Source: Tubiluchus corallicola (taxonomy: Eukaryota; Animalia; Priapulida). Taken from it: a stretch of 30,537 bases of DNA. The notes beneath the pieces were generated by a model. That model was not told the DNA's origin and made no database searches. It worked only from the letters and a program-made list of their open reading frames with translations. The position numbers and the translations under genes are program-made. Of this stretch, positions 1,024 to 30,537 are shown one piece after another. The stretch is taken from assembly GCA_030141605.1 (NCBI GenBank), contig JAQGDQ010001667.1:1-30537 (forward strand), given 5' to 3'. Each line of letters begins with the position of its first letter. Positions within the stretch are counted from its first letter, which is position 1.

Positions 1024-1571
1024 TTAAAGGAAAAGTCAAGCTTTCTAGAAAGTTAAGCTTATTTCAATGTTCGCGAAAAATGTTAGAAGGATTTAGTAAT
1101 AAAACTGCAATAAGCGCCTCGTGTAATTAGTAAAATCACTTTTCGTTTTCATTTGGACGCTCCCATTTTCAATGCCCATTCTTCTTCCAATGACGTCATG
1201 CGTCTTGAAGAAAAGTAGCGCACTGTCAATCTTCATCAAAAGTATAGTAAGTCTTTACACAAAATAGATAGCTAATTTTGTAATATTTTTACGTGAACAT
1301 TAAGTAAGCTGCAGAAGTTTGATTACTGCAGCGCGCGCTTACGGAAAGCCACGATGCGCTTACGAAAAGTCGCGAAGTCTTTCAGTTACGTCACGATTTT
1401 CAGGTGAATGGCAGCAACCACAGCGCAAGAAAATTTCTATTCAGAGGTAGGTTATTTTAAATTTATGCTTTATAGGCAGTTTTTTGCAAATTTCTTTGTT
1501 ATATTTTTCTAAGTTTAAGTGATAACAGTAAAATAAACCCAGCATACTGAGTGACTTGTTCTTTCCTTTAA
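1024..1571 (+). mobile_element. TTAA-flanked non-autonomous DNA transposon, family C (Kolobok/T2-MITE-like)
   Basis: Begins TTAA|AGGAAAAGTCAAG and ends CTTGTTCTTTCCT|TTAA, with imperfect TIRs of about 45 bp. Its left ~280 bp has a second copy in reverse at 17845-18123. A TTAA target site with RR...YY termini is characteristic of Kolobok. Confidence 0.7.
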
Positions 1572-2363
1572 CACACCACAAACAGTTTAAGTGATAACAG
1601 TAAAACAAACCCAACATACTGAGTGACTTGTCCTTTGCTTTAACACACCACAAACAGTTTAAGTGATAACAGTAAAATAAACCCAACATACTGAGTGACT
1701 TGTTCTTTCCTTTAGCACACCACAAACAGTTTAAGTGATAACAGTAAAATAAACCCAGCATACTGAGTGACTTGTTCTTTCCTTTAACACACCACAAACA
1801 GTTTAAGTGATAACAGTAAAATAAACCCAGCATACTGAGTGACTTGTTCTTTCCTTTAGCACACCACAAACAGTTTAAGTGATAACAGTAAAATAAACGC
1901 AACATACTGAGTGATTTGTTCTTTCCTTTAGCACACCACAAACAGTTTAAGTGATAACAGTAAAATAAACCCAACATACTGAGTGACTTGTCCTTTGCTT
2001 TAACACACCACAAACAGTTTAAGTGATAACAGTAAAATAAACCCAACATACTGAGTGACTTGTTCTTTCCTTTAGCACACCACAAACAGTTTAAGTGATA
2101 ACAGTAAAATAAACCCAACATACTGAGTGACTTGTTCTTTCCTTTAGCACACCACAAACAGTTTAAGTGATAACAGTAAAATAAACCCAACATACTGAGT
2201 GACTTGTTCTTTCCTTTAACACACCACAAACAGTTTAAGTGATAACAGTAAAACAAACCCAACATACTGAGTGACTTGTCCTTTGCTTTAACACACCACA
2301 AACAGTTTAACTGATAACAGTAAAATAAACGCAACATACTGAGTGACTTGTTTTTTCCTTTAA
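1512..2363. repeat. 72-bp minisatellite, about 12 copies
   Basis: Unit CAGTTTAAGTGATAACAGTAAAATAAACCCAACATACTGAGTGACTTGTTCTTTCCTTTAACACACCACAAA. It produces the 24-aa periodic ORF 1441-2373. Confidence 0.97.
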
Positions 2364-2399
2364 CTTCTAGCAAATGTAGACGCTTATTGACCTAGTGCT

Positions 2400-6477: not shown

Positions 6478-6924
6478 AAGTCAGACGGGCACTAGCGCTT
6501 GCATTTCGGAAGGCATTGCACAAAAAACAGGTGCTGTACCTCTCAGTTCAGATGTGTTAGTTTGTGACGAACTACACACGTTTGACAGCTCATACGTGAG
6601 CACAGCAGTAAATTTGAAATTCGAAATTTTATCTTAAAACTTGCCGAGTTTCACTGCAATACCCTGAATACCTTATAGCAGCACTGTACTTCAAATTTCG
6701 CTTTCATAAACACGTGCAACACGCTCGTGGAATATTTTTGATGTTGAAAATTATGTTAGTTTGTGATGTCAGTAATAGTTGAGCTCGCCCGCCGTTAATT
6801 AAATTTTTAATCTATTATTTAATTATCAGAAACACTTTTGCGGTATTAATTGTGTTAAAATGTATGCTTTTTATCGGACTTGAAAATTGGCTAGTATATG
6901 AAAAATCATGCTGTCTTCCTTTAA
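6478..6924 (+). mobile_element. Family B TTAA MITE, right two-thirds
   Basis: Colinear with 26463-26910 and ends CTGTCTTCCT|TTAA. Confidence 0.85.
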
Positions 6925-7057
6925 TCCACAATCTTTCATTCTAAAACTTTTGTAATTTAGTTTGGGTTGTTGTAGTTGGTCCTGGTGCTGATGGTAGTGA
7001 CTTGGTCACAGTTGGTGACCATGTGTGACATCATAGTGGTAATGTTTTCAACATTCA

Positions 7058-7365
7058 TGTAATCATCATCATTATTATTATCGTCACCGCCATCATCCTC
7101 ATCATCATTATCATCATCGTCATCGCCATCATCATCATTATCATCATCATCATTATAATTATTGTCACCGCCATCATAATCATCATCATTATCATTATTG
7201 TCACCGCCATCATCATCATCACCATCATCGCCATCATCATCATCATCATCATTATCGTCATCGCCATCATCATCATTATCATCATCATCATCACCATCAC
7301 CATCATCATCATCATCATCATCGTTATCATCATTGTCACCGCCATCATCATCATCAATATCGTCA
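7058..7365. repeat. Degenerate (ATC)n microsatellite
   Basis: Directly visible. It is the source of the poly-D, poly-M and poly-S ORFs. Confidence 0.95.
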
Positions 7366-7776: not shown

Positions 7777-7990
7777 TTAAAGGAAAAGCGGACGATTTGC
7801 TAGACTCAATCTCATTTTGGTTTACTGTTTACTGTCCAATATATATATTTTGTTGCCTATAAAAGTTAACAATTGTTCCTTATATTTGAATAATTAGCTT
7901 AGAAAGTTAATTAACTGTAACCGAACACCACAGTTTGTGCAATAGCAGACATCTTCTCTTGCGCGTCAAGTATGTTTCCGTAAGTGTTAC
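7777..7990 (+). mobile_element. Family A TTAA MITE, left part
   Basis: Starts TTAAAGGAAAAGCGGACGATT and is colinear with the starts of the copies at 14949 and 28190. Confidence 0.8.
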
Positions 7991-10914: not shown

Positions 10915-11450
10915 TGACAATGAAGTCAAGTTTGTCACCAGTTGAAAATGAACTCAAGTTTGTCACATTTGACAGTATAAAGTCAAGTTTGTAACACTTG
11001 GCAATGAAGTAAAGTCTGTCACCAGTTGAAAATGAACTCAATTTGTCACATTTGACTGTATAAAGTCAAGTTTGTTACACTTGGCAATGAAGTAAAGTCT
11101 CTCACCAGTTGAAAATGAACTCAAGTTTGTCACATTTGACTGTGTAAAGTCAAGTTTATTACACTTGGCAATGAAGTAAAGTCTGTCACCAGTTGGAAAT
11201 GAACTCAAGTTTGTCACATTTGACAGCGTAAAGTCAAGTTTGTTACACTTGGCAATGAAGTCAAGTCTGTCACCAGTTGAAAATAAACTCAAGTTTGTCA
11301 CATTTCACGGTATAAAGTCAAGTTTGTTACACTTGGCAATGAAGTAAAGTCTGTCACCAGTTGAAAATGAACTCAAGTTTGTGACATTTCACAGTATAAA
11401 GTCAAGTTTGTTACACTTGGCAATGAAGTAAAGTCTGTCACCAGTTGAAG
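10915..11450. repeat. 84-bp minisatellite, about 6.3 copies (trimer of ~28-bp subunits)
   Basis: AACTC anchors at 10951, 11035, 11118 and 11202. Each unit holds three AAGTCAAGTTTGTCAC-like cores. Confidence 0.95.
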
Positions 11451-11674
11451 TTGTCAATTGAAAAAAAATGAAAAATTGTCACCACTTAACACTGAAGCCA
11501 AACTTGTCTGCGACTGACAACAAAATCAACTTCGACACCAGCTGACAATGGTGTCAAATTTGCAAACTGCTTAAAAACGATAAAAAATCTTTTATCAGTT
11601 AGCAAAAATGACAAACTTATCACTAAGTGATAACTGGTGATTATAATGGCAAATTTCTCAATCTTTAACACTGG

Positions 11675-12755
11675 TGATAATTTTGTCAACCATTAACAAT
11701 GAGACAAGTTTTTGATTGACGCTGATGACAATTTTGTCAACCATTAACAATGAGACAAGTTTATGGTTGGCAATAATGATAATTTTGTCAACCATTAACA
11801 ATGAGACAAGTTTATGGTTGGCAATAATGATAATTTTGTCAACCATTAACAATGAGACAAGTTTATCGTTGGCAATAATGATAATTTTGTCAACCATTAA
11901 CAATGAGACAAGTTTATCGTTGGCAATAATGATAATTTTGTCAAACATTAACAATGAGACAAGTTTATCGTTGGCAATAATGATAATTTTGTCAACCATT
12001 AACAATGAGACAAGTTTATGGTTGGCAATAATGATAATTTTGTCAAACATTAACAATGAGACAAGTTTATGGTTGGCATTAATGATAATTTTGTCAACAA
12101 TTAACAATGAGACAAGTTTATCGTTGGCAATAATGATAATTTTGTCAAACATTAACAATGAGACAAGTTTATGGTTGGCAATAATGACAATTTTGTCAAC
12201 CATTAACAATGAGACAAGTTTATGGTTGGCAATAATGATAATTTTGTCAACCATTAACAATGAGACAAGTTTATCGTTGGCAATAATGATAATTTTGTCA
12301 ACCATTAACAATGAGACAAGTTTATGGTTGGCAATAATGATAATTTTGTCAACCATTAACAATGAGACAAGTTTATCGTTGGCAATAATGATAATTTTGT
12401 CAACCATTAACAATGAGACAAGTTTATCGTTGGCAATAATGATAATTTTGTCAAACATTAACAATGAGACAAGTTTATCGTTGGCAATAATGATAATTTT
12501 GTCAACCATTAACAATGAGACAAGTTTATGGTTGGCAATAATGATAATTTTGTCAAACATTAACAATGAGACAAGTTTATGGTTGGCATTAATGATAATT
12601 TTGTCAACCAATAACAATGAGACAAGTTTATCGTTGACACTGATGCCAATTTTCTCAACTACTAACAATGAGACAAGTTTATCGTTGACACTGATGACAA
12701 TATTGTCAACCATTAACAACAAGACATCTTTGTGGTTGGCAATAATGACAAGTTT
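11675..12755. repeat. 51-bp minisatellite, about 21 copies
   Basis: Unit GATAATTTTGTCAACCATTAACAATGAGACAAGTTTATGGTTGGCAATAAT. It produces 17-aa periodic ORFs on both strands. Confidence 0.97.
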
Positions 12756-12900
12756 GTCACCAGCAGCAAAAACAAAGACTTATCCTTGTGCACCTGCCAT
12801 GAAAACTTTTTATTAATAACTAAAATTAATTTTTTAACGCTTCATTATTAAAACAAACAAATAATCTCTTAATATTATTAAGTCTTAATATAACAATAAC

Positions 12901-13393: not shown

Positions 13394-13541
13394 CGGAAGA
13401 GGTGCTGACAAGCCACTAGCATAGTAATGTCCAGCGTTTTTGCTGGATTACTGCCTGTGCTTTCCTTTCTTGAGGGCAGATTTATTTTAGAGTTCTGCTG
13501 CCCAGTGCCTGCAATAGACATAATTAGCATATGATGATGGC

Positions 13542-13575
<34 letters not shown>

Positions 13576-13650
13576 GCGGTGACGATAATGATAATGATGA
13601 TGATGATGATGGCGATGATGATGATGATGATGGTGGTGATGATGATGATT
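13394..13650 (+). mobile_element. Retroposon 3' end with expanded (GAT)n tail
   Basis: Homologous to 5272-5448 (minus strand). GAT tract at 13531-13650. Confidence 0.6.
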
Positions 13651-13786
13651 ACATGAATGATGAAAACATTACCACTGTGATGTCACACATGGTCACCAAC
13701 CTTGACCAAGTCACTACCATCAGCACCAGGACCAACTACAACAACCCAAACTAAATAACAAAAGTTTTAGAATGAAAGATCATGGA

Positions 13787-14345
13787 TTAAAGGAAGACAG
13801 GATGATTTTTCAATGCTATCCCATTTTCAATTTCGATAAAAAGCATACATATGAAGACAATTAATACTGCAAACGTGTTTCTGATAATTAAATAATAGAT
13901 TAAAAACTTAATTAACGGCAGGCGAGCTCAACTATTACTGACATCACAAACTAACACAATTTTCAACAGCAAAAATATTCCGTGAGTGTGTTGCACGTGT
14001 TTGCGAAAGCGAAAATTGAAGTTCAGTGCTACTGTAAGATATTCAGTGTGTTGCACTAAAACCAGGCAAGTTTAAAGATGAAAATTAAAATTTACGGCTG
14101 TGCTCGCGCGCGAGCTGTCGAGCGTGTGCAGTATGTCACAAACGAACACACCTAAACTTTACAGTACCTGTTTTTTGTGCAATGCGTTTCCGAAAAGCAG
14201 GCGCTAGTGCCCGTCTAACTAGCGAATGGAGAAATGCATGTAACAGTGAAGAACTAGTGGCGCGAACGTGAAATTGTGTTTGTGTGGCAATAATTCTTTC
14301 ACGTAAGTCATTTTTGTAAAGTGTAAGTATACAATGACTTTAAAA
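13787..14345 (-). mobile_element. Family B TTAA MITE, near full length, reversed
   Basis: Begins TTAA|AGGAAGACAGGATGATTT on the + strand and matches about 26360-26910 in reverse complement. Confidence 0.85.
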
Positions 14346-14572: not shown

Positions 14573-14948
14573 ACAGCTGACAAAGTCCGCGAAGGACAGA
14601 AGCTTCTGGAAAAATGAAATTTTTTTGAGATTAAACGGCACTTTGTCTACTTCATGGTTATGACCACGGCAAGAACTATCAGAAGAGTACTACCTGATTT
14701 TCAAGCTATAAATACGTTTTTATTGCTGTCTATTATTGCAGGTTTATTTTCTAGTAAATCTATAAATTCATTTAAAATTTCTTCAACTTGGGCTACATTA
14801 TTTTATCTTAAACGCCAATTATGGTTTATAAGACAATTCAGATGTATAAACTGTTTCGAAAAATCGATAACTTAGATCACACTAATTTTGCGCATCGAGA
14901 TTAATTTTTGTTTTTGTAGCTGAATAGCTGTTATTTACTGCAACTGTT

Positions 14949-15441
14949 TTAAAGGAAGACCGGACGATTGTTTAGACTCATTCTCATTTTAATTTACTGT
15001 CCAAAATATACATTTTCTTGTCTATAAAAGTTAACAATTGTTCCTTATATTTGAATAATTAGCTTAGAAAGTTGATTAACTGCAACCGAACACAGCTATT
15101 GCTTACATCACAAACTAACCACAGTTTGTGCAATGGCAGACATCTTCATAATAAGATGTGTCACGAAAAACGGGCTCTACATCATATGACGTCAGAAACT
15201 AACACTGCAGTTCATGATCATGCTTATCACGGTACCGCCTTCTATTTGTCGGCCACGCGAATGTGACAAATGTGACACGCTGCCATTCACTGAACCGCGC
15301 TTATCTTTGAATGTTATCGAAATTTGAGTATCTGAGGTAATTATTATTTAATCTAAGCCTTGATTTAAATAAGCTATTGTAGCTTTCAATATTTTAGAGC
15401 ATTCTTTATTCTGAACTAATGTTTATACAATCATCCGGTTT
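14949..15441 (+). mobile_element. Family A TTAA MITE, near complete
   Basis: Left TIR TTAA|AGGAAGACCGGACGATTGTTTAGAC. The right end ACAATCATCCGGTTT is degraded. Colinear with 28190-28734. Confidence 0.85.
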
Positions 15442-16846: not shown

Positions 16847-17302
16847 AACTTGTAGCAGACTAAGGCTTGGCCCCCAGAATAAAACAGCAATGAACAGACC
16901 GGGTGAAACAAAACAAACCCTGGTATGTAGAGAATAGAGTTTGCAACTTGCCTGCTCGCTTCTGTTTGGTGCAGCAAATATCGCACATCCTACATGCTGT
17001 AACTTGTAGCAGACTAAGGCTTGGCCCCCGGAATAAAACAGCAATGAACAGACCGGGTGAAACAAAACATGCCCTGTTATGTAGAGAATAGAGTTTGCAA
17101 CTTGCCTGCTCGCTTCTGTTTGGTGCAGCAAATATCGCACATCCTACATGCTGTAACTTGTAGCAGACTAAGGCTTGGCCCCCGGAATAAAACAGCAATG
17201 AACAGACCGGGTGAAACAAAACATGCCCTGGTATGTAGAGAATAGAGTTTGCAACTTGCCTGCTCGCTTCTGTTTGTTGCAGCAAATATCGCACATCTTA
17301 CA
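16847..17302. repeat. 154-bp tandem repeat, about 3 copies
   Basis: AACTTGTAGCAGACTAAGG recurs at about 16847, 17001 and 17155. Confidence 0.97.
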
Positions 17303-18454: not shown

Positions 18455-18830
18455 ATTCAAACGTTCATATATCAAATAATTTTACACCAATGATTGACTC
18501 AGGAGTTGTATCGCAGTGCCATCTGCAGTACGAAAACGTAAGGATAAGATACGTAATGCCGTTTACCGTACTGTATCGATATTCAAACGCTTATATATCA
18601 AATAATTTTACACCAATGATTTACTCAGGAGTTGTATCGCAGTGCCATCTGCAGTACGAAAACGTAAGGATAAAATACGTAATGTCGTTTACCGTACTGT
18701 ATCGATATTCAAACGCTCATATATCAAATAATTTTACACCAATGATTTACTCGGGAGTTGTATCGCAGTGCCATCTGCAGTACGAAAACGTAAGGATAAA
18801 ATACGTAATGCCGTTTACCGTACTGTATCG
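18455..18830. repeat. 126-bp tandem repeat, 3 copies
   Basis: TTCAAACG anchors at 18456, 18582 and 18708. Confidence 0.97.
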
Positions 18831-19015
18831 CTGCGTCATCTTGCGGATAGATTTGCGAAAGTAATATTAAGCATGGTGTAAAAACAGTTGTTGTATATAC
18901 TCGACCCCTTAATGAGTAAGAATAGGTAGAAGGCCATGGGATATAGATAAACACCATCGCCATCAGTTTTATTATTTTAGAATTTTTTTTCGCCATTAGT
19001 AATGTTGACTGTCGT

Positions 19016-19944
19016 CAATGCTGTACCAATATTGGACGACCATATTGGTTCAATGCTGTACCAATATTGGACGACCACATTGATCCTATGCTGTACCAAT
19101 ATCGGACGACCATGTTGATCCAATGTTGTACCAATATTGGACGACCATATTGACCCAAAGCTGTACCAATATTGGACGACCATATTGATCCAATGCTGTA
19201 CCAATATCGGACGACCATATTGGACCAATGCTATACCAATATTGGACGACCATATTGGTCCAATGCTATACCAATATCGGACGACCATATTGGTTCAATG
19301 CTGTACCAATATCGGACGACCATATTGGTTCAATGCTGTACCAATATCGGACGACCATATTGGTTCAATGCAGTACCAATATCGGACGACCACATTAGAC
19401 CAATGCTATACCAATATTGGACGACCATATTGGTCTAATGCTGTACCAATATCGAACGACCATATTGGTTCAATGCTGTACCAATATCGGACGACCACAT
19501 TAGACCAATGCTATACCAATATTGGACGACCACATTGGTCCAATGCTGTACCAATATTGGACGACCATATTGGTCTAATGCTGTACCAATATCGAACGAC
19601 CATATTGGTTCAATGCTATACCAATATTGGACGACCATATTGGTTCAATGCTGTACCAATATTGGACGACCACATTGGTCCAATGCTGTACCAATATTGG
19701 ACGACCACATTGGTCCAATGCTGTACCAATATTGGACGACCACATTGGTCCAATGCTGTACCAATATTGGACGACCACATTGGTCCAATGCTGTACCAAT
19801 ATTGGACGACCATATTGATCCAATGCTGTACCAATATTGGACGACCACATTGGTCCAATGCTGTACCAATATCGGAGGACCATATTGACCCAATGCTGTA
19901 CCAATATTGGACGACCATATTGGTCCAATGCTGTACCAATATCG
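19016..19944. repeat. 35-bp minisatellite, about 26 copies
   Basis: Unit CAATGCTGTACCAATATTGGACGACCATATTGGTY, with no unique spacers. Confidence 0.98.
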
Positions 19945-20820
19945 CACGAAAATATGTAATATTGTACCAACTGTTTGAGAACTAAACTAAGTATGGCGCT
20001 TCTCGAGTAAAAATGGTTACGTAGAATTAGCTGTAGATCTTAGATCTTCGCAACGTAGCATTAGCTGTTGTCTAAAACTCAAATGTTAAACCATTGTATA
20101 ACTATGCGCATATTTTACATCTATCTTTCTTGTTTTCTGTTGGATGTAAACAGTATAATCAACCTAGAATATCGCTAATTCGCATACATTTTCTACCTAG
20201 CGAAATGCTCAAATAAACGTAAACTAGGGCTTCAGTCACTCATTAATCGGTTTCATACATATCACTAAAATTACAGATTTTTACATATTTTGTGCTGTAG
20301 AGATGATAATAGTGACAATATTTTCTGCATAGTTTTTATCAACATGCTGTCAAAATCGTGACCATATTGGACAATATGGAGCTGAACAGGTGAAAGTGAA
20401 TTATACAGTTCTATTCATAGGCACCAGGCCAGCCAACCTACAGGTAATGTTATGACCTCCACTTTAAACTAGGAAGCCCATAACATCACCTGCGATTGGT
20501 TGAGCAGTGGTTTCCTGTGGAAAGAACGAACACGTGACATCGTCAGTTGTCTTCTGGTTGTCATGGAATGCACTTCTCCTGTCTGCCTGCCGAGTGTCGT
20601 GGATTCCGTAAGGTTTGAAGCATTGTCATCAGTTTTTTTCCCATTGTGTTGTTCTTCTCAGCCGTCCCTTTTGAATTCTAAGTTTTGGTTTTGTTGTTTC
20701 TTTTATTTTAAATTTCTGGAGTGTCCGTTATGCAGTGCTTACCCGCATCACCGATGTCGGGCCGTAAGGCTATCTACCGGATCGAACCCTGGAACAATAT
20801 CGTGAGCTGCCTAGTTCATC

Positions 20821-20993
20821 TTATCCTACCACTGTAGCTCTACTACACCTAGTTTTGCTCATATCTGGACGACATACACAAGTATTGGAGTATTCATTGC
20901 AATATCTACCCAGCCATATTCGTTGAGTTCCGTCAGGCTCCGTGAGGAATATGCACTCATCGCTTGTAAGACAGAAACCGCCAAGCGGAACAC
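20821..20993 (-). CDS. Probable last coding exon, six-cysteine EB/EGF-like module ending at TAA
   Basis: Acceptor tttatttctctttcaAG|GT, phase 1: (G)VPLGGFCLTSDECIFLTEPDGTQRIWLGRYCNEYSNTCVCRPDMSKTRCSRATVVG*. AATAAA on the minus strand at 20702-20707. It is uncertain whether the TAA is the native stop. Confidence 0.75.
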
Positions 20994-21780: not shown

Positions 21781-21888
21781 CCTCGATGACGCATATTCCC
21801 CCACCACTGACACGGACACACCTAGATACTTCTGCGCCCTGGCGGCGACAATCCTCGTCAAGGTTGCAAGGATCCCAGTTTCTAGGAA
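21781..21888 (-). CDS. Cys-rich module exon of the same gene
   Basis: Acceptor ttacactttaaAG|TT and donor G|GTGAGT. 108 bp symmetric phase-1 exon, GC-rich relative to its flanks: (I)PRNWDPCNLDEDCRRQGAEVSRCVRVSGGGICVIE(G), pattern C-x5-C-x9-C-x8-C. Confidence 0.8.
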
Positions 21889-22250: not shown

Positions 22251-24083
22251 TTAAAGTCAAACTAAACTCTCACTATAATATAAGCTTTTACTGTCACTAC
22301 GAACATTCAGTTTATTTTATCATAAACTTACTGTAAAACTTGTTTCTTTTGATTTTTTATCACTTCGTTGTTAACGGTGTTAAATTTGAAGAACCGCCAT
22401 TTTTCGTTGAGCGAGACGAATGACGTAATGAGTGCAGTCACGAGGTAACCAAAGGTTAGTAAGTGAGACAAATGGCATAATGAGTACAGTCACGAGGTCA
22501 CCAAAGATTAGTAAGCGAGTCGAATGAAGTAATGAGTGCAGTCACAAGGTCACCAAAGATTAGTAAGTGAGACAAATGGCGTAATGAGTACAGTCACGAG
22601 GTCACCAAAGATTAGTAAGTGAGACGAATGACGTAATGAGTGCAGTCACGAGGTAACCAAAGATTAGTAAGTGAGACGAATGGCGTAATGAGTACAGTCA
22701 CGAAGTCACCAAAGATTAGTAAGTGAGACAAATGGCATAATGAGTGCAGTCACGAAGTCACCAAAGATTAGTAAGTGAGACGAATGACGTAATGAGTGCA
22801 GTCACGAGGTCACCAAAGATTAGTAAGTGAGACAAATGGCGTAATGAGTACAGTCACGAGGTCACCAAAGATTGGTAAGTGAGACAAATGACGTCATGAG
22901 TACAGTCACGAAGTCACCAAAGATTAGTAAGTGAGACGAATGACGTAATGAGTGCAGTCACGAGGTCACCAAAGATTAGTAAGTGAGACGAATGGCGTAA
23001 TGAGTACAGTCACGAGGTCACCAAAGATTAGTAAGTGAGACGAATGGCGTAATGAGTACAGTCACGAAGTCACCAAAGATTAGTAAGTGAGACGAATGGC
23101 GTAATGAGTGCAGTCACGAGGTCACCAAAGATTAGTAAGTGAGACGAATGACGTAATGAGTGCAGTCACGAGGTCACCAAAGATTAGTAAGTGAGACAAA
23201 TGACGTAATGAGTGCAGTCACGAAGTCACCAAAGATTAGTAAGTGAGACAAATGACGTAATGAGTGCAGTCACGAAGTCACCAAAGATTAGTAAGTGAGA
23301 CGAATGACGTAATGAGTGCAGTCACGAAGTCACCAAAGATTAGTAAGTGAGACGAATGGCGTAATGAGTACAGTCACGAAGTCACCAAAGATTAGTAAGT
23401 GAGACGAATGACGTAATGAGTGCAGTCACGAAGTCACCAAAGATTAGTAAGTGAGACGAATGACGTAATGAGTGCAATCACGAGGTCACCAAAGATTAGT
23501 AAGTGAGACGAATGGCGTAATGAGTACAGTCACGAAGTCACCAAAGATTAGTAAGTGAGACAAATGACGTAATGAGTGCAGTCACGAAGTCACCAAAGAT
23601 TAGTAAGTGAGACAAATGACGTAATGAGTGCAGTCACGAAGTCACCAAAGATTAGTAAGTGAGACGAATGACGTAATGAGTGCAGTCACGAAGTCACCAA
23701 AGATTAGTAAGTGAGACGAATGGCGTAATGAGTACAGTCACGAAGTCACCAAAGATTAGTAAGTGAGACGAATGACGTAATGAGTGCAGTCACGAGGTCA
23801 CCAAAGATTAGTAAGTGAGACGAATGGCGTAATGAGTGCAATCACGAGGTCAACAAACATTGGTAACCAAAGACCCTTTCTGTACCTAGTATTCTCGCTC
23901 ACTCTCGCCAAAGACGCGAAACATGGCGATCTTTACGGCAACACACGCGTTCGAAATTCGCCAGAAAACAGGAAGTTACTCAATTCAGTCTCTTTTGTTT
24001 AACAATAACTTTAAATTATTCGTGTAATAATAACAATGCGTTAAGAAAACCTCAATGTCTGTTGGGGTTGTACAAGCCTTTAA
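22251..24083. mobile_element. Possible TTAA-flanked MITE expanded by an internal minisatellite
   Basis: TTAA|AGTCAAACTAAAC lies ~160 bp left of the 52-bp array and GTTGTACAAGCCT|TTAA lies ~225 bp right of it. TIR similarity is weak and there is no second copy in the window. Confidence 0.35.
22411..23857. repeat. 52-bp minisatellite, about 28 copies (intronic)
   Basis: Unit GAGACGAATGACGTAATGAGTGCAGTCACGAGGTCACCAAAGATTAGTAAGT. Confidence 0.98.
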
Positions 24084-24262
24084 ATTTCTTTATGAAGACA
24101 ATGCAGATACTTTACCTTTCATACAATGACCCGCGATGTTGCCAAAATTTCTCCCTGTATCACATACGCATATCTTTCTGCCGTAAGTTAGTTTACATAT
24201 AGCATTTTCTGGACATTGGTGATCTAATACACACTGCTCTCCAATTGACGATCCTAAATAAA

Positions 24263-25354: not shown

Positions 25355-25419
25355 TAGGCAGGTAATTAGTAAGTTTGTTCAAGCTCCGGCAGGCGACTTT
25401 ATCTGCGACACCTGGTGTC
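25355..25419 (-). CDS. Short linker exon of the minus-strand ZP-N/Cys-rich gene
   Basis: Acceptor tttaatttctttcAG|G and donor A|GTAAGT. 65 bp. The only open frame is phase 2 to phase 1 (TPGVADKVACRSLNKLTNYLP), exactly the phases needed to join the flanking exons. Confidence 0.7.
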
Positions 25420-26283: not shown

Positions 26284-26910
26284 TTAAAGCAAAACCGGAC
26301 CCAGTCTTAAGCTATAGGTATAACAATCTACTCTTTATAAATTCTTAAAGGAAACAAACTATTTTTTCAAGAATGACATACATGAAAGAATTATTACCAC
26401 ACAAACACAATTTTACGTTCGCACCACTAGTTCTTCGCTGTTGCATGCATTTCGCCATTCGTTAGTTAGACGGGCACTATAGCGTAATGCATTTAGGAAA
26501 CACTTTGCACAAAAACAGTTGCTGTACCTCTCATTTCAGATGTGTTGGTTTGTGACGAACTTCACACGTTCAACAGCTCATGCATGAGCACAGTGGTAAA
26601 TTTGAAATTTGAATTTTTATCTTAAAACTTGCCTAGTTTTAGTACAACACACTGAATATCTTACAGTAGCACTGTACTTCAATTTTCGCTTTCGCAAACT
26701 CGTTCAACACGCTCGTGGAATTTTTGCTGTTAAAAATTATGTTAGTTTGTGATGTCAGTAATAGTTAGGCTTGCCTGCCGTTAATTAAGTTTTTAATCTA
26801 TTATTTAATTATCAGAAACGCTTTAACAGTATAAATTGTGTTAAAATGTTTACTTTTCATTGGAGTTCAAGACGGGGTAGCATAAGAGAAATCATCCTGT
26901 CTTCTTTGAA
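26284..26910 (+). mobile_element. Family B TTAA MITE, full-length reference copy (intronic)
   Basis: TTAA|AGCAAAACCGGAC ... ATCCTGTCTTCTTTGAA (right end degraded). Four further partial copies occur in the window. Confidence 0.85.
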
Positions 26911-26984
26911 GTAAATGAGAAAGTAATGGTAAATTGCTGAGTTTCTTATTATTTATTTATTTATTTATTTATTTATTAACTTAC

Positions 26985-27145
26985 ATTTTCATGTGATTAT
27001 ATTCTTCAGCTGTCACTGCACAAGTAACTATGTAATGTCTGTTAATGATGCTGCCATCTATCGTCGTCGCTGTCAAGTAAATATAATTTTGATAGACGTT
27101 GTAGTAATTCCACGTTAAAGCAAAAGTGTGCGGTTCAACAACAGT
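26985..27145 (-). CDS. Internal coding exon, C-terminal half of a ZP-N-like domain
   Basis: Minus-strand acceptor ttatcgtattttcAG|ACT and donor AT|GTAAGT. 161 bp, phase 0 to phase 2: TVVEPHTFALTWNYYNVYQNYIYLTATTIDGSIINRHYIVTCAVTAEEYNHMK(M). YxNxI followed by IIxR...C matches the second half of ZP-N. Confidence 0.75.
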
Positions 27146-27269
27146 CTGAAAATACGATAAAATAACGATATAATAAGATGAAGGCATTTATATCAGATAA
27201 AATAAATTTTTGTCAAATAAAAGTTACCCAAAGTTCATGTCTATGTTCATAAATAGACTGTCACTAGCA

Positions 27270-27757
27270 GCATAATTTACTGTATCAATTTCTTTTCTAC
27301 AGGTCTGCTTATTCATTACCTATTTGGCTTTTTGTAAAGACATAATTAGTGCATAATTTACTGTATCAATTTCTTTTCTACTGATCTGTTTATTCATTAC
27401 CTATTTGGCTTTTGTAAATACATAATTAGTGCATAATTTACTGTATCAATTTCTTTTCTACTGGTCTGTTTATTCATTATCTATTTGGCTTCTGTTAAAT
27501 ACATAATTAGTGCATAATTTACTGTATCAATTTCTTTTCTACTGGTCTGTTTATTCATTACCTATTTGGCTTCTGTTAAATACATAATTAGTGCGTAATT
27601 TACTGTATCAATTTCTTTTCTACTGGTCTGCTTATTCATTACCTATTTGGTTTTTTGTAAATATATAATTAGCGCTTAAGTTGCTGTATCAACTTCCTGA
27701 CTCTTCTGTTTATTCATTAGCTATTTGGCTTCTGTCAATTACTTAATTAGTGCATAA
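27270..27757. repeat. 80-81-bp minisatellite, about 6 copies
   Basis: GC(A/G)TAATTTACTGTATCAATTTC at 27270, 27351, 27431, 27512 and 27593. The last copy is diverged. Confidence 0.95.
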
Positions 27758-27987
27758 AGTAAAGTTTTTAATAAAGTTGTGTTGTTTATAAACTATGAAA
27801 AATGATCTTAAGTCTCTATAACTTAAATTTCAAAACTGAGTAGATTAATTTTAAATTTTGCTGGGTTTTAGTTTACAATTCTAATATAATCTGCTACTGT
27901 GAAACTCATAAGATGAAATAATATTCAGTGAGGAAGCAGAACTATCACGTTTGCAGATATATTTCATGTATTTCACTTTGTTTAAAG

Positions 27988-28169
27988 GTATCAAGTCCAG
28001 TTGTAATATTATGTGCAAGACGCTAGATGTCGCCATCACGTTGAATTATGGGATTAAATCTGCATCCCTCCAAGCGCAACGACCCGAATGTTCAGCCTGG
28101 ATAGATGGTCAAAAAGCACTAGGATTCGTGGCTATTCCTTTCCATACCTGTGGGACGGTAGAAAGAACG
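27988..28169 (+). CDS. Internal coding exon, N-terminal half of a ZP-N (zona pellucida N-terminal)-like domain
   Basis: Acceptor tttcactttgtttaaAG|GT and donor ACG|GTAAGC. 182 bp, phase 1 to phase 0, no stops: xIKSSCNIMCKTLDVAITLNYGIKSASLQAQRPECSAWIDGQKALGFVAIPFHTCGTVERT. The C...C...(hydrophobic)-I-P-F-x-x-C-G-T pattern is the classic ZP-N first-half motif. Confidence 0.75.
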
Positions 28170-28189
28170 GTAAGCCTGCAAACGGCAAC

Positions 28190-28734
28190 TTAAAGAAAAG
28201 CCTGACGATTGTTTAGACTCAATCTCATTTTCATTTACGGTCCAAAATATACATTTTCTTGCCTATAAAAGTTAGCAATTGTTTCTTGCCTTGGAAAAAT
28301 TGCCTTGGAAGGTTAATTAAGGGCAACCGAACACAGCTATCGTTACTTCACTGTCGTCACAAACTAATCACAGTTTGTGCAATGGCAGGCATCTTCCCTG
28401 CTCGTCAAACACGTTTACGTAAGCGAAGATTGCTATAAGACACTGATGCGATGTTACGAAAATGACCTCTACCTCACACTTACGTCACATAGACACTGCA
28501 GTTCATGATCATGCTATCACGGTACAGCGCCTATTTGTCGGCCATGCGAATGTCACAAAAAGCGCCATTGCCAGTGTTAGTGGATACGCATAGCTTTGAA
28601 AGTATAACAAAATTTACTATTCGACGTAATTATTTTTTAATCTAAGTTTTGATTTAAAAAAGTTGTAGTTTCAATATTTTAGAACATACTTTATTTTGAA
28701 CTAATGTCTACACAATCGTCCTGTTTTCCTTTAA
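28190..28734 (+). mobile_element. Family A TTAA MITE, complete (Kolobok/T2-MITE-like)
   Basis: TTAA|AGAAAAGCCTGACGATTGTTTAGAC ... GTCTACACAATCGTCCTGTTTTCCT|TTAA: imperfect TIRs of about 25 bp with TTAA on both sides. Confidence 0.9.
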
Positions 28735-28862
28735 ATTATTATGATCTGACAAAACGAAAGGCAGAAAATGAGAACATTGTTGTTATTTTTCAGCGGTTTC
28801 CTATAGCTTAATTAACATAGTTTAATTAACATAAAGAAGGTTAGTTAACACAAGAGTGAAAT

Positions 28863-29085
28863 CAATGACGTCTGTACAGAAAGGTGTTGGGCATGAAATG
28901 ACCTAAGAAAATCTCAAATCGAGATCAAGATCTGTATGATTTCACAAAGAAAAAGGAATGGAGTGATGGTATACAGAAACGACGGCTTAGATGGACTGAA
29001 CATGTCATCAGATTACTACAGGATTCTCCACTTACTACAGCATCACATCAAGCACTAATACCTGGGAGGAAACCAAGAGGAGGAC
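28863..29085 (+). pseudogene. RTE-clade LINE ORF2 C-terminal remnant
   Basis: One frame reads Q*RLYRKVLGMK*PKKISNRDQDLYDFTKKKEWSDGIQKRRLRWTEHVIRLLQDSPLTTASHQALIPGRKPRGG. This matches the RTE motifs LRxILGxxWxxxISN, RRLRWxGHVxR and GxRxRGRP. It has two in-frame TGA codons. Confidence 0.85.
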
Positions 29086-30537
29086 TTCTGGATTGGACCT
29101 GTCATCAGATTACCACAAGATTCTCCACTTACTACAGCATCACATCAAGCACTAATACCTGGGAGGAAACCAAGAGGAGGACATCCGGATTGGACATGTC
29201 ATCAGATTACCACAGGATTCTCCACTTACTACAGCATCACATCAAGCACTAACACCTGGGAGGAAACCAAGAGGAGGACATCCGGATTGGACATGTCATC
29301 AGATTACTACAGGATTCTCCACTTACTACAGCATCACATCAAGCACTAATACCTGGGAGGAAACCAAGAGGAGGACATCCGGATTGGACATGTCATCAGA
29401 TTACCACAGGATTCTCCACTTACTACAGCATTACATCAAGCACTAATATCTGAGAGGAAACCAAGAGGAGGACATCCGGATTGGACATGTCATCAGATTA
29501 CCACAGGATTCTCCACTTACTACAGCGTTACATCAAGCACTAATACCTGGGAGGAAACCAAGAGGAGGACTTCCGGATTGGACATGTCATCAGATTACCA
29601 CAGGATTCTCCACTTACTACAGCATTACATCAAGCACTAATACCTGGGAGGAAACCAAGAGGAGGACATCCGGATTGGACATGTCATCAGATTACCACAG
29701 GATTCTCCACTTACTACAGCATTACATCAAGCACTAATACCTGGGAGGAAACCAAGAGGAGGACATCCGGATTGGACATGTCATCAGATTACCACAAGAT
29801 TCTCCACTTACTACAGCATCACATCAAGCACTAATACCTGGGAGGAAACCAAGAGGAGGACATCCGGATTGGACATGTCATCAGATTACCACAGGATTCT
29901 CCACTTACTACAGCATTACATCAAGCACTAATACCTGGGAGGAAACCAAGAGGAGGACTTCCGGATTGGACATGTCATCAGATTACCACAGGATTCTCCA
30001 CTTACTACAGCATTACATCAAGCACTAATACCTGAGAGGAAACCAAGAGGAGGACTTCCGGATTGGACATGTCATCAGATTACCACAGGATTCTCCACTT
30101 ACTACAGCATTACATCAAGCACTAATACCTGAGAGGAAACCAAGAGGAGGACTTCCGGATTGGACATGTCATCAGATTACCACAGGATTCTCCACTTACT
30201 ACAGCATCACATCAAATACTAATACCTGGGAGGAAACCAAGAGGAGGACTTCCGGATTGGACATGTCATCAGATTACCACAGGATTCTCCACTTACTACA
30301 GCATCACATCAAATACTAATACCTGGGAGGAAACCAAGAGGAGGACTTCCGGATTGGACATGTCATCAGATTACCACAGGATTCTCCACTTACTACAGCA
30401 TCACATCAAATACTAATCTAAGAGGAAAACAAGAGGAGGACTTCCGGATTTGACATGTCATCAGATTACCACAGGATTCTCCACTTACTACAGCATTACA
30501 TCAAGCACTAATACCTGAGAGGAAACCAAGAGGAGGA
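28993..30537. repeat. 97-bp minisatellite, about 16 copies, running off the window end
   Basis: GGACATGTCATCAG anchors 97 bp apart (29192, 29289 and onward). Confidence 0.98.

What the first reader, a model, noticed from the sequence alone, without database searches (positions are those of the whole stretch)
26985..28169. One protein domain split across opposite strands: two halves of a ZP-N domain in divergent, phase-matched exons
Seen in sequence: the + strand exon 27988-28169 ends in phase 0 after ...IPFHTCGTVERT, and the - strand exon 27145-26985 starts in phase 0 with TVVEPH...YQNYIY...IINRHYIVTC. The two exons point away from each other about 840 bp apart. Both have canonical splice sites and no stops. 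Known: ZP-N domains run C1...C2...PxxxCGT...YxN...C4, and joining these two exons produces that order. I found no minus-strand copy of the first half and no plus-strand copy of the second half in the window. Inference, four options: (a) an inversion flipped one exon, which could be a null allele, a polymorphism or a switchable exon; (b) head-to-head partial inverted duplicates whose other parts lie beyond the window; (c) opposite-strand trans-splicing, as known for Drosophila mod(mdg4); (d) mis-assembly near the flanking tandem arrays.
Basis: partly seen in the sequence, partly recalled or inferred. Interest (0 to 1): 0.85.

Follow-up and report, generated by a model that had tools for sequence, protein, structure and literature searches.

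The report
Flipped exon in a matrix-protein gene
Two intact exons that likely encode the two halves of one matrix-protein domain do point away from each other, but sequence data from an animal carrying this allele leave the assembled sequence exactly between them, so this is likely an ordinary flipped, broken copy (or an assembly error) rather than splicing between opposite strands.

Summary
The layout is real. Exon A (+, 27988-28169) and exon B (-, 27145-26985) are intact, phase-matched and 842 bp apart. B heads a five-exon minus-strand gene with EB/EGF-like modules; joined in order, the exons give one open 274-residue frame with ZP-N cysteine spacing (ZP-N match weak, Pfam E 0.071, exon A only). 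Both exons look selected. New evidence: contigs from a sample carrying the window's allele follow B's flank to 27273, then run on into sequence unlike the window. The window there joins, over a 4-base overlap, to a truncated high-copy repeat. The arrangement between the exons is therefore not fixed, or not real. Best reading: a heterozygous inversion that flips exon A and would make a null allele in a small gene family (0.42); next, a chimeric assembly join (0.25). Interleaved paralogs (0.13) and a plain deletion at the junction remain open. Trans-splicing (0.08) lacks the eri-6/7 hallmarks: no shared repeat, no pairing above chance, no first exon on A's strand. No RNA run was listed and no read spans the junction. 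The scan has noted similar opposite-strand exons in other genomes (unchecked notes).

The parts
27988..28169 (+). Exon A: internal exon, phase 1 in, phase 0 out; first half of a ZP-N-like domain (4 Cys)
   Evidence: Pfam ZP-N E 0.071; two alleles at about half depth each in run X1, 4 differences in 182 nt against 16 in 197 nt of flank
26985..27145 (-). Exon B: phase 0 in, phase 2 out; likely second half of the ZP-N-like domain (YxN motif, last Cys)
   Evidence: look-alike contigs with mostly silent changes; no Pfam match
25355..25419 (-). Exon C: 65-nt linker exon, phase 2 in, phase 1 out
24116..24253 (-). EB/EGF-like module 1, phase 1-1
   Evidence: Pfam EB E 4.1e-05, 24.0 bits against cut-off 24.3
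21781..21888 (-). Cys-rich module 2, phase 1-1
   Evidence: no Pfam match
20821..20993 (-). Last coding exon: EB-like module 3 and stop codon; AATAAA follows at 20707-20702
   Evidence: Pfam EB E 0.0023
27270..27273 (.). Junction: 4 bases (GCAT) shared by B's unique flank and the start of the 81-bp unit; contigs of X1 and X3 leave the window after 27273
   Evidence: table 8 records 1 and 17, table 2
27270..27790 (+). High-copy repeat element: six 81-bp units and a short tail; lacks the sequence that most often precedes the unit in other copies
   Evidence: (table 7)
28189..28735 (.). MITE-like element with terminal inverted repeats and TTAA ends, 20 bp after exon A's donor
26284..26910 (.). 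Second MITE-like element with related ends, in the B-C intron
28993..30537 (.). 97-bp tandem array (16 copies) that runs to the end of the window

Best explanation
Two intact exons that likely encode the halves of one ZP-N-type domain lie on opposite strands, and contigs from an animal carrying this allele leave the window's sequence exactly between them, so exon A was likely flipped by a local inversion on one chromosome copy, which would make that copy non-functional while the other copy likely keeps the normal order. Shown: the exons, their phases, the departure after 27273 and the 4-base overlap. Inferred: the working gene lies on the minus strand (an unseen signal-peptide exon right of the window, then A, B, C and three EB/EGF-like exons) and is spliced in the ordinary way to a small, probably secreted ZP-N + EB matrix protein. 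The inversion has one break 128 bp before B's acceptor and the other inside a repeat element upstream of A, joined by microhomology; the second junction would lie right of the window. On the flipped copy A is antisense and would be skipped. A phase-1 first exon joined to B (phase 0) or C (phase 2) shifts the frame; only a skip to the EB exons (phase 1) stays in frame. Paralogs and the other allele would cover the loss.
For: X1 record 1 (412 nt, depth 146) matches 26980-27273 and runs on for 88 letters that do not fit the window; X3 record 17 does the same for 37 letters. A break between the exons is required by an inversion. The junction has a 4-base overlap, and the repeat lacks its usual leader (table 7; 0 matches in the window), as expected of a rearrangement break. 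The window's allele of A is present letter for letter in X1 (records 1 and 4, 0 differences) and X2 (record 9), beside a second allele at equal depth. Depth 146 fits a heterozygous tail (137-145 for diploid depth 170-180) slightly better than a homozygous one (156-165). Exon A differs between alleles at 2.2% against 8.1% in its flank (Fisher P 0.011), with I/L, L/I and a silent change, so it has been under selection until recently. B look-alikes differ at 5 codons, 4 silently. All five splice junctions are in phase.
Against: The 88 letters were not printed, so it is not shown that they lead to a colinear exon A; a deletion on the window's copy would look the same. No contig of the 4 runs laid covers the window's own junction (depth at 27240-27265 is that of the one departing contig), which is also what an assembly error predicts. 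The depth test is not decisive: a diploid depth of 160 with a homozygous tail gives 147. X3's departing contig carries the window's base at 27180. The second breakpoint, the first exon and any RNA were not seen. The window's own exon A shows no decay, so the inversion would have to be recent.
Confidence: 0.42

Rival explanations
1. Assembly artefact: a chimeric, strand-switching read joined B's flank to sequence upstream of A at 27273/27274, and the last 3.3 kb of the window is the inverted tail. The gene is colinear on both chromosomes.
For: No laid contig covers the window's junction in 4 of 4 runs, and the contigs that reach it (X1, X3) both leave it. The window ends 3.3 kb later inside a tandem array, so only one junction is needed. 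Amplification chimeras are mostly inversions primed at 2-21 matching bases (PMC1855051, abstract). HiFi assemblies of C. elegans showed 117-144 inversions against the reference (PMC11660948, passages).
Against: Logan contigs are simplified and lossy (10.1101/2024.07.30.605881, passages), and a short half-depth link into a very deep repeat is the kind of edge such assemblers drop (recalled). X1 holds only 0.78 of the stretch's sampled words, so window words are lost elsewhere too. The window is base-accurate and in phase across the heterozygous flank of A. A 4-base overlap is too short for an overlap misjoin; it needs a chimeric read. Whether the DNA was amplified is unknown.
Confidence: 0.25
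2. Interleaved paralogs: A belongs to a plus-strand family member whose B lies right of the window, B belongs to a minus-strand member whose A lies right of the window, and the break at 27273 is only an intron indel.
For: B has look-alikes at about 83% identity with mostly silent changes (X2 record 9, 14 differences in 84 letters; three extra X1 contigs). Both alleles of A are intact. Intron indels are likely common at this heterozygosity (inference).
Against: A needs a phase-1 first exon on the plus strand to its left; signal-peptide-like candidates number 2 loci against 4.1 in shuffles (40 shuffles), one in a tandem array and one with a poor donor. The minus-strand gene would have to sit inside that gene's first intron while its own A-B intron holds the other gene's exon. 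No second A at 92% identity or more was laid; more distant copies were not tested.
Confidence: 0.13
3. Opposite-strand trans-splicing: a plus-strand transcript ending in exon A is joined to a minus-strand transcript starting at exon B, as in C. elegans eri-6/7.
For: Divergent geometry and matched phase are as in eri-6/7 (10.1101/2024.01.15.575659, passages), where the inversion is also polymorphic. Exon A is intact and conserved on the window's own copy. mod(mdg4) needs no complementary introns (PMC13490949, passages).
Against: No repeat longer than 14 bp is shared by 27146-27987 and 28170-30537. The best duplex between the two introns is -31.9 kcal/mol, weaker than 40 of 40 shuffles (mean -38.5). 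A is an internal exon with no start exon beside it, so two trans steps would be needed if the first exon is on the minus strand. The layout is not fixed.
Confidence: 0.08
4. Fixed inversion: both chromosomes carry the flipped exon and the gene is a young pseudogene or makes only a short EB-module protein.
For: Both alleles of A share the same acceptor-side flank up to the repeat tail (27771). Paralogs could cover the loss.
Against: Three haplotypes of A (window, X1's other allele, X4) differ far less in the exon than in the flank, which a long-dead exon would not show.
Confidence: 0.06

Closest known systems
C. elegans eri-6/7 (10.1101/2024.01.15.575659, passages read)
   Same: Two halves of one gene in divergent orientation after a transposon-associated inversion; polymorphic, with colinear haplotypes in about 20% of wild strains.
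   Different: There the inverted block holds the first seven exons and is flanked by ~930-bp direct repeats that drive trans-splicing, and the fused mRNA is shown. Here one internal exon is flipped, no such repeat lies in the window and no RNA is known.
Drosophila mod(mdg4) (PMC13490949 and PMC4667647, passages read)
   Same: Exons of one protein on opposite strands; several related 3' blocks may exist here too (B look-alikes).
   Different: mod(mdg4) has a complete constant 5' unit with its promoter, a fixed conserved layout and only one trans step. None of these is seen here.
Intragenic exon inversions as null alleles (PRKN exon inversion PMC8421701 and a polymorphic gene-breaking human inversion PMC4591017, search listing only; Invas PMC13484493, passages)
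   Same: An exon turned round inside its gene with breaks in the flanking introns.
   Different: Here in an invertebrate gene family, with only one junction seen and no phenotype.
ZP-N domain, Pfam PF23344 (PMC7456536, PMC8391237, passages read)
   Same: Cys spacing of the joined exons (25 or 29, 20, 48; 93 or 97 in all) matches mouse ZP3 (C46, C78, C98, C139: 32, 20, 41; 93 in all).
   Different: No ZP-C follows; three EB/EGF-like modules and a stop come instead, with no membrane anchor. The profile match is below the cut-off.

Membership tests
ZP-N domain (PF23344) | Four Cys with C1-C4, C2-C3 spacing over about 95-100 residues | tested here: met
   Cys at 5, 9, 34, 54 (A) and 102 (B) in the joined frame; reference spacing from PMC8391237 and PMC7456536 passages. 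Disulfide pairing itself not tested.
ZP-N domain (PF23344) | Profile score above the curated cut-off | tested here: inconclusive
   A alone 13.9 bits against 24.7, E 0.071; B alone no match. The joined peptide was not scanned.
ZP-N domain (PF23344) | Ig-like eight-stranded sandwich fold | tested here: inconclusive
   Single-sequence models of the halves had mean pLDDT 54 and 60; no match at E <= 0.001 or Z >= 5 for B.
ZP-N domain (PF23344) | Conserved Tyr in the second half | tested here: inconclusive
   YQN in exon B fits the recalled YxN motif; PMC8391237 names a conserved ZP-N tyrosine; no alignment could place it.
Full ZP module | ZP-C domain directly after ZP-N | tested here: not met
   A 21-residue linker, three Cys-rich modules and a stop follow.
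eri-6/7-type trans-spliced gene | 5' and 3' halves in divergent orientation | tested here: met
eri-6/7-type trans-spliced gene | Direct repeats flanking the inverted block that pair the two pre-mRNAs | tested here: not met
   Longest shared match 14 bp; duplex weaker than 40 of 40 shuffles. Sequence right of the window not tested.
eri-6/7-type trans-spliced gene | Inverted block carries the gene's first exon | tested here: not met
   No ATG + hydrophobic + phase-1 donor exon in 27146-27987; candidates further left at chance level.
eri-6/7-type trans-spliced gene | Fused mRNA from the inverted allele | not testable with these tools
   No RNA holder listed.
mod(mdg4)-type trans-spliced gene | One constant 5' unit joined to many 3' units with their own promoters | tested here: inconclusive
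   B has look-alikes; A had no second copy at >= 92%, but more distant copies were not looked for.
Polymorphic intragenic inversion | A breakpoint between the discordant exons where another haplotype differs | tested here: met
   X1 record 1 and X3 record 17 leave the window after 27273.
Polymorphic intragenic inversion | Second breakpoint, and reads for both orientations | not testable with these tools
   No genome held; only short contigs available.

The most novel reading that the evidence does not exclude
The flipped exon A is still used: it is transcribed from the plus strand and spliced in trans onto exon B, and perhaps onto several paralogous B-EB blocks, giving a second natural case of an inversion rescued by trans-splicing, this time of an internal exon inside one folding domain and without the direct repeats of eri-6/7.
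Probability: 0.07. Interest if true: 0.75.

Novelty: new member of a known kind. Interest (0 to 1): 0.24.

Why it matters
On the likely readings it matters little: one more structural-variant allele, or an assembly error, in a polymorphic invertebrate gene family. It is a useful warning that opposite-strand exon pairs in single-haplotype assemblies need a read check at the intervening junction. The gene itself, an isolated ZP-N-like domain followed by EB modules with no relative found in the databases searched, is a minor addition to matrix proteins. If the flipped exon were rescued by trans-splicing, it would show that an internal exon can be joined across strands without pairing repeats, and a segregating pair of alleles would allow the origin of trans-splicing to be studied directly.

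Tried and rejected
No whole genome is held, so the DNA right of the window was not seen. No RNA holder listed; this is no evidence on expression. Run X4, of unknown kind, behaves as DNA: one contig runs through intron into exon A (record 25); it has no cover over most of exon B or the junction. Homolog searches among longer proteins: A 14 candidates, 0 at E <= 10; EB1 0 candidates; B 3 candidates, 0 at E <= 10. Full HMMER search with A gave 1 hit (P0002, E 8.3e-04), a tandem-repeat translation, rejected. ESM Atlas: only scores <= 0.77 for A, none for B. PDB sequence search: 0 hits for A and for B at E <= 10. Single-sequence folds were low-confidence and A came out helical; fold searches with B gave nothing; A's model was not searched. 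Co-folding A with B gave no answer (score 0.03), which is no evidence either way. No ZP-N sequences could be obtained to build a profile, so the joined peptide was never scored against ZP-N. Extending A upstream in frame lost the Pfam match and gives no signal peptide. The plus-strand candidate first exon at 14654-14741 has a poor donor (GTTTAT) and is at chance frequency. Rfam: 0 matches. The B/last-exon alignment was not used. Literature: 0 papers held 'trans-splicing' + 'zona pellucida domain' + 'opposite strands'; 0 of 12 listed papers held 'EB module'; one search gave 0 papers. Reads were laid on two separate stretches, never across the whole array, so no table could show an A-B joint directly.

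Full report
Observation. Exon A (+, 27988-28169, 182 nt) has an AG acceptor and a GTAAGC donor, is open from 27990, enters in phase 1 and leaves in phase 0. Exon B (-, 27145-26985, 161 nt) has an AG acceptor and a GTAAGT donor, enters in phase 0 and leaves in phase 2. They are 842 bases apart and point away from each other. Neither has a second copy in the window.

The gene. B is followed on the minus strand by exons 25419-25355 (phase 2 to 1), 24253-24116, 21888-21781 (both phase 1 to 1) and 20993 to a stop at 20823-20821, with AATAAA at 20707. Two of the three Cys-rich exons match Pfam EB below its cut-off (E 4.1e-05; E 0.0023). With A placed first, the six exons give one open frame of 274 residues with Cys at 5, 9, 34, 54 and 102 in the A+B part. 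That spacing matches ZP-N: mouse ZP3 has C46, C78, C98, C139 (PMC8391237, passages), and nematode ZP-N has aligned positions 1, 29, 48, 80 (PMC7456536, passages). Pfam ZP-N matches A at profile positions 16-57 of 101, but only at E 0.071; B matches nothing. Database, Atlas, PDB and fold searches found no relative. So 'ZP-N' is a likely label, not a tested one. No ZP-C or membrane anchor follows. A enters in phase 1, so a first exon, probably the signal peptide, is missing from the window. Earlier unchecked notes call this animal a likely priapulid; I did not test that.

Both exons look selected. Four public runs hold the stretch, three from one sample; none is on record as RNA. In the deep run X1, exon A and its acceptor-side flank occur as two alleles at depths 79-92, one identical to the window. 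They differ at 16 of 197 flank positions but 4 of 182 exon positions (Fisher P 0.011), giving I/L, L/I and one silent change; X4 adds a third haplotype with one silent change and the same L/I. Isolated differences can be hidden in such contigs, so both counts are minimal. No second copy of A at 92% or more was laid. At an 80% threshold, B's 3' part drew extra contigs at about 83% identity, whose six listed differences fall in five codons, four silent and one I/V. B therefore has paralogs; whether A has was not tested.

The junction. X1 record 1 (412 nt, depth 146) matches 26980-27273 with one difference and then runs on for 88 letters that do not fit the window; X3 record 17 leaves at the same base, for 37 letters. 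Depth at 27240-27265 equals that one contig in each run, so no laid contig carries the window's own join; X2 and X4 have no cover there. In the window, 27270 begins a six-unit 81-bp array, and the four bases GCAT (27270-27273) belong both to the unique flank and to the unit. The unit is a very deep genomic repeat (summed depth about 2 million against about 170 for single-copy DNA; rough). Its commonest non-array leader (57 X1 contigs) is absent from the window, so the element is cut at this point. Both alleles of A keep the element's tail on A's side. The window thus differs from at least one chromosome of an animal with the same A allele, exactly between the two exons, at a microhomology join.

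What this does not show. The 88 letters were not printed. They could lead to a colinear exon A (inversion or chimeric join), or simply be sequence deleted from the window's copy, with A inverted on both. The missing junction contig is what an artefact predicts, but Logan contigs are simplified and lossy (10.1101/2024.07.30.605881, passages), X1 holds only 0.78 of the sampled words, and a short half-depth link into a deep repeat is easily removed (recalled). Depth 146 fits a heterozygous tail at diploid depth 170-180 (137-145) but also a homozygous one at 160 (147). X3's departing contig carries the window's base at 27180, a slight point for the artefact. The window ends 3.3 kb after the join inside a 97-bp array, so a single chimeric join would suffice; amplification chimeras are mostly inversions primed at 2-21 bases (PMC1855051, abstract), but whether this DNA was amplified is unknown.

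Trans-splicing. The closest case is C. elegans eri-6/7: divergent halves, a polymorphic transposon-linked inversion, rescue by ~930-bp direct repeats, and the first seven exons inside the inverted block (10.1101/2024.01.15.575659, passages). Here the longest match shared by 27146-27987 and 28170-30537 is 14 bp, and the two introns pair more weakly than 40 of 40 shuffles. No first exon lies between B and A; plus-strand candidates to the left number 2 loci against a mean of 4.1 in 40 shuffles. mod(mdg4) shows that pairing is not required (PMC13490949, passages), so trans-splicing is not excluded, but an internal exon would need two trans steps or an unseen plus-strand start. One search found no paper joining trans-splicing, ZP domains and opposite strands.

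Verdict. An inversion demands a break between the exons, and one is there; a fixed layout explains it only by a coincidental indel. I put a heterozygous inversion that flips exon A and makes a null allele at 0.42, a chimeric join at 0.25, interleaved paralogs at 0.13, trans-splicing at 0.08 and a fixed dead copy at 0.06. The first two share the conclusion that the working gene is colinear and ordinary. These odds are judgement, not computation. The scan has noted opposite-strand exon pairs in a shark and a euglenid, read there as rearranged copies or local inversions (unchecked). Interest 0.24.

Noticed in passing
window 27907-27960: Nine differences between the two X1 alleles cluster in 54 bp just upstream of exon A's acceptor, eight of them shared with the second animal (X4); possibly a conversion tract or an old haplotype split.
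   Followed up: no
window 27270-27790: The 81-bp unit is part of a very high-copy dispersed element with a recurrent leader and an AATAAAG(TTG)-like tail; its class is not determined.
   Followed up: partly
window 28189-28735, 26284-26910, 13787-14320, 14949-15441, 6479-6924, 7777-7984: Two related MITE-like families with TTAA ends and similar terminal inverted repeats; they resemble Kolobok-type elements (name recalled, not tested).
   Followed up: partly
window 26980-27063: Paralogs of exon B at about 83% identity point to a small family of ZP-N-like + EB genes for which no database relative was found.
   Followed up: partly
window 14654-14741: Plus-strand ATG-to-donor stretch with a short hydrophobic run ending in phase 1; poor donor and chance-level frequency, but the only non-array candidate for a plus-strand first exon.
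   Followed up: partly
window 6617-7180 and 13531-14093: A 560-bp inverted pair (87%) made of a MITE end plus an (ATC)n tract, 6.3 kb apart.
   Followed up: no
window 1512-2364, 10918-12759, 16847-17302, 18455-19949, 22413-23866, 28993-30537: Many minisatellite arrays (periods 72, 84, 51, 154, 126, 35, 52, 97) with 0% indels, which suggests a base-accurate long-read assembly (inference).
   Followed up: no
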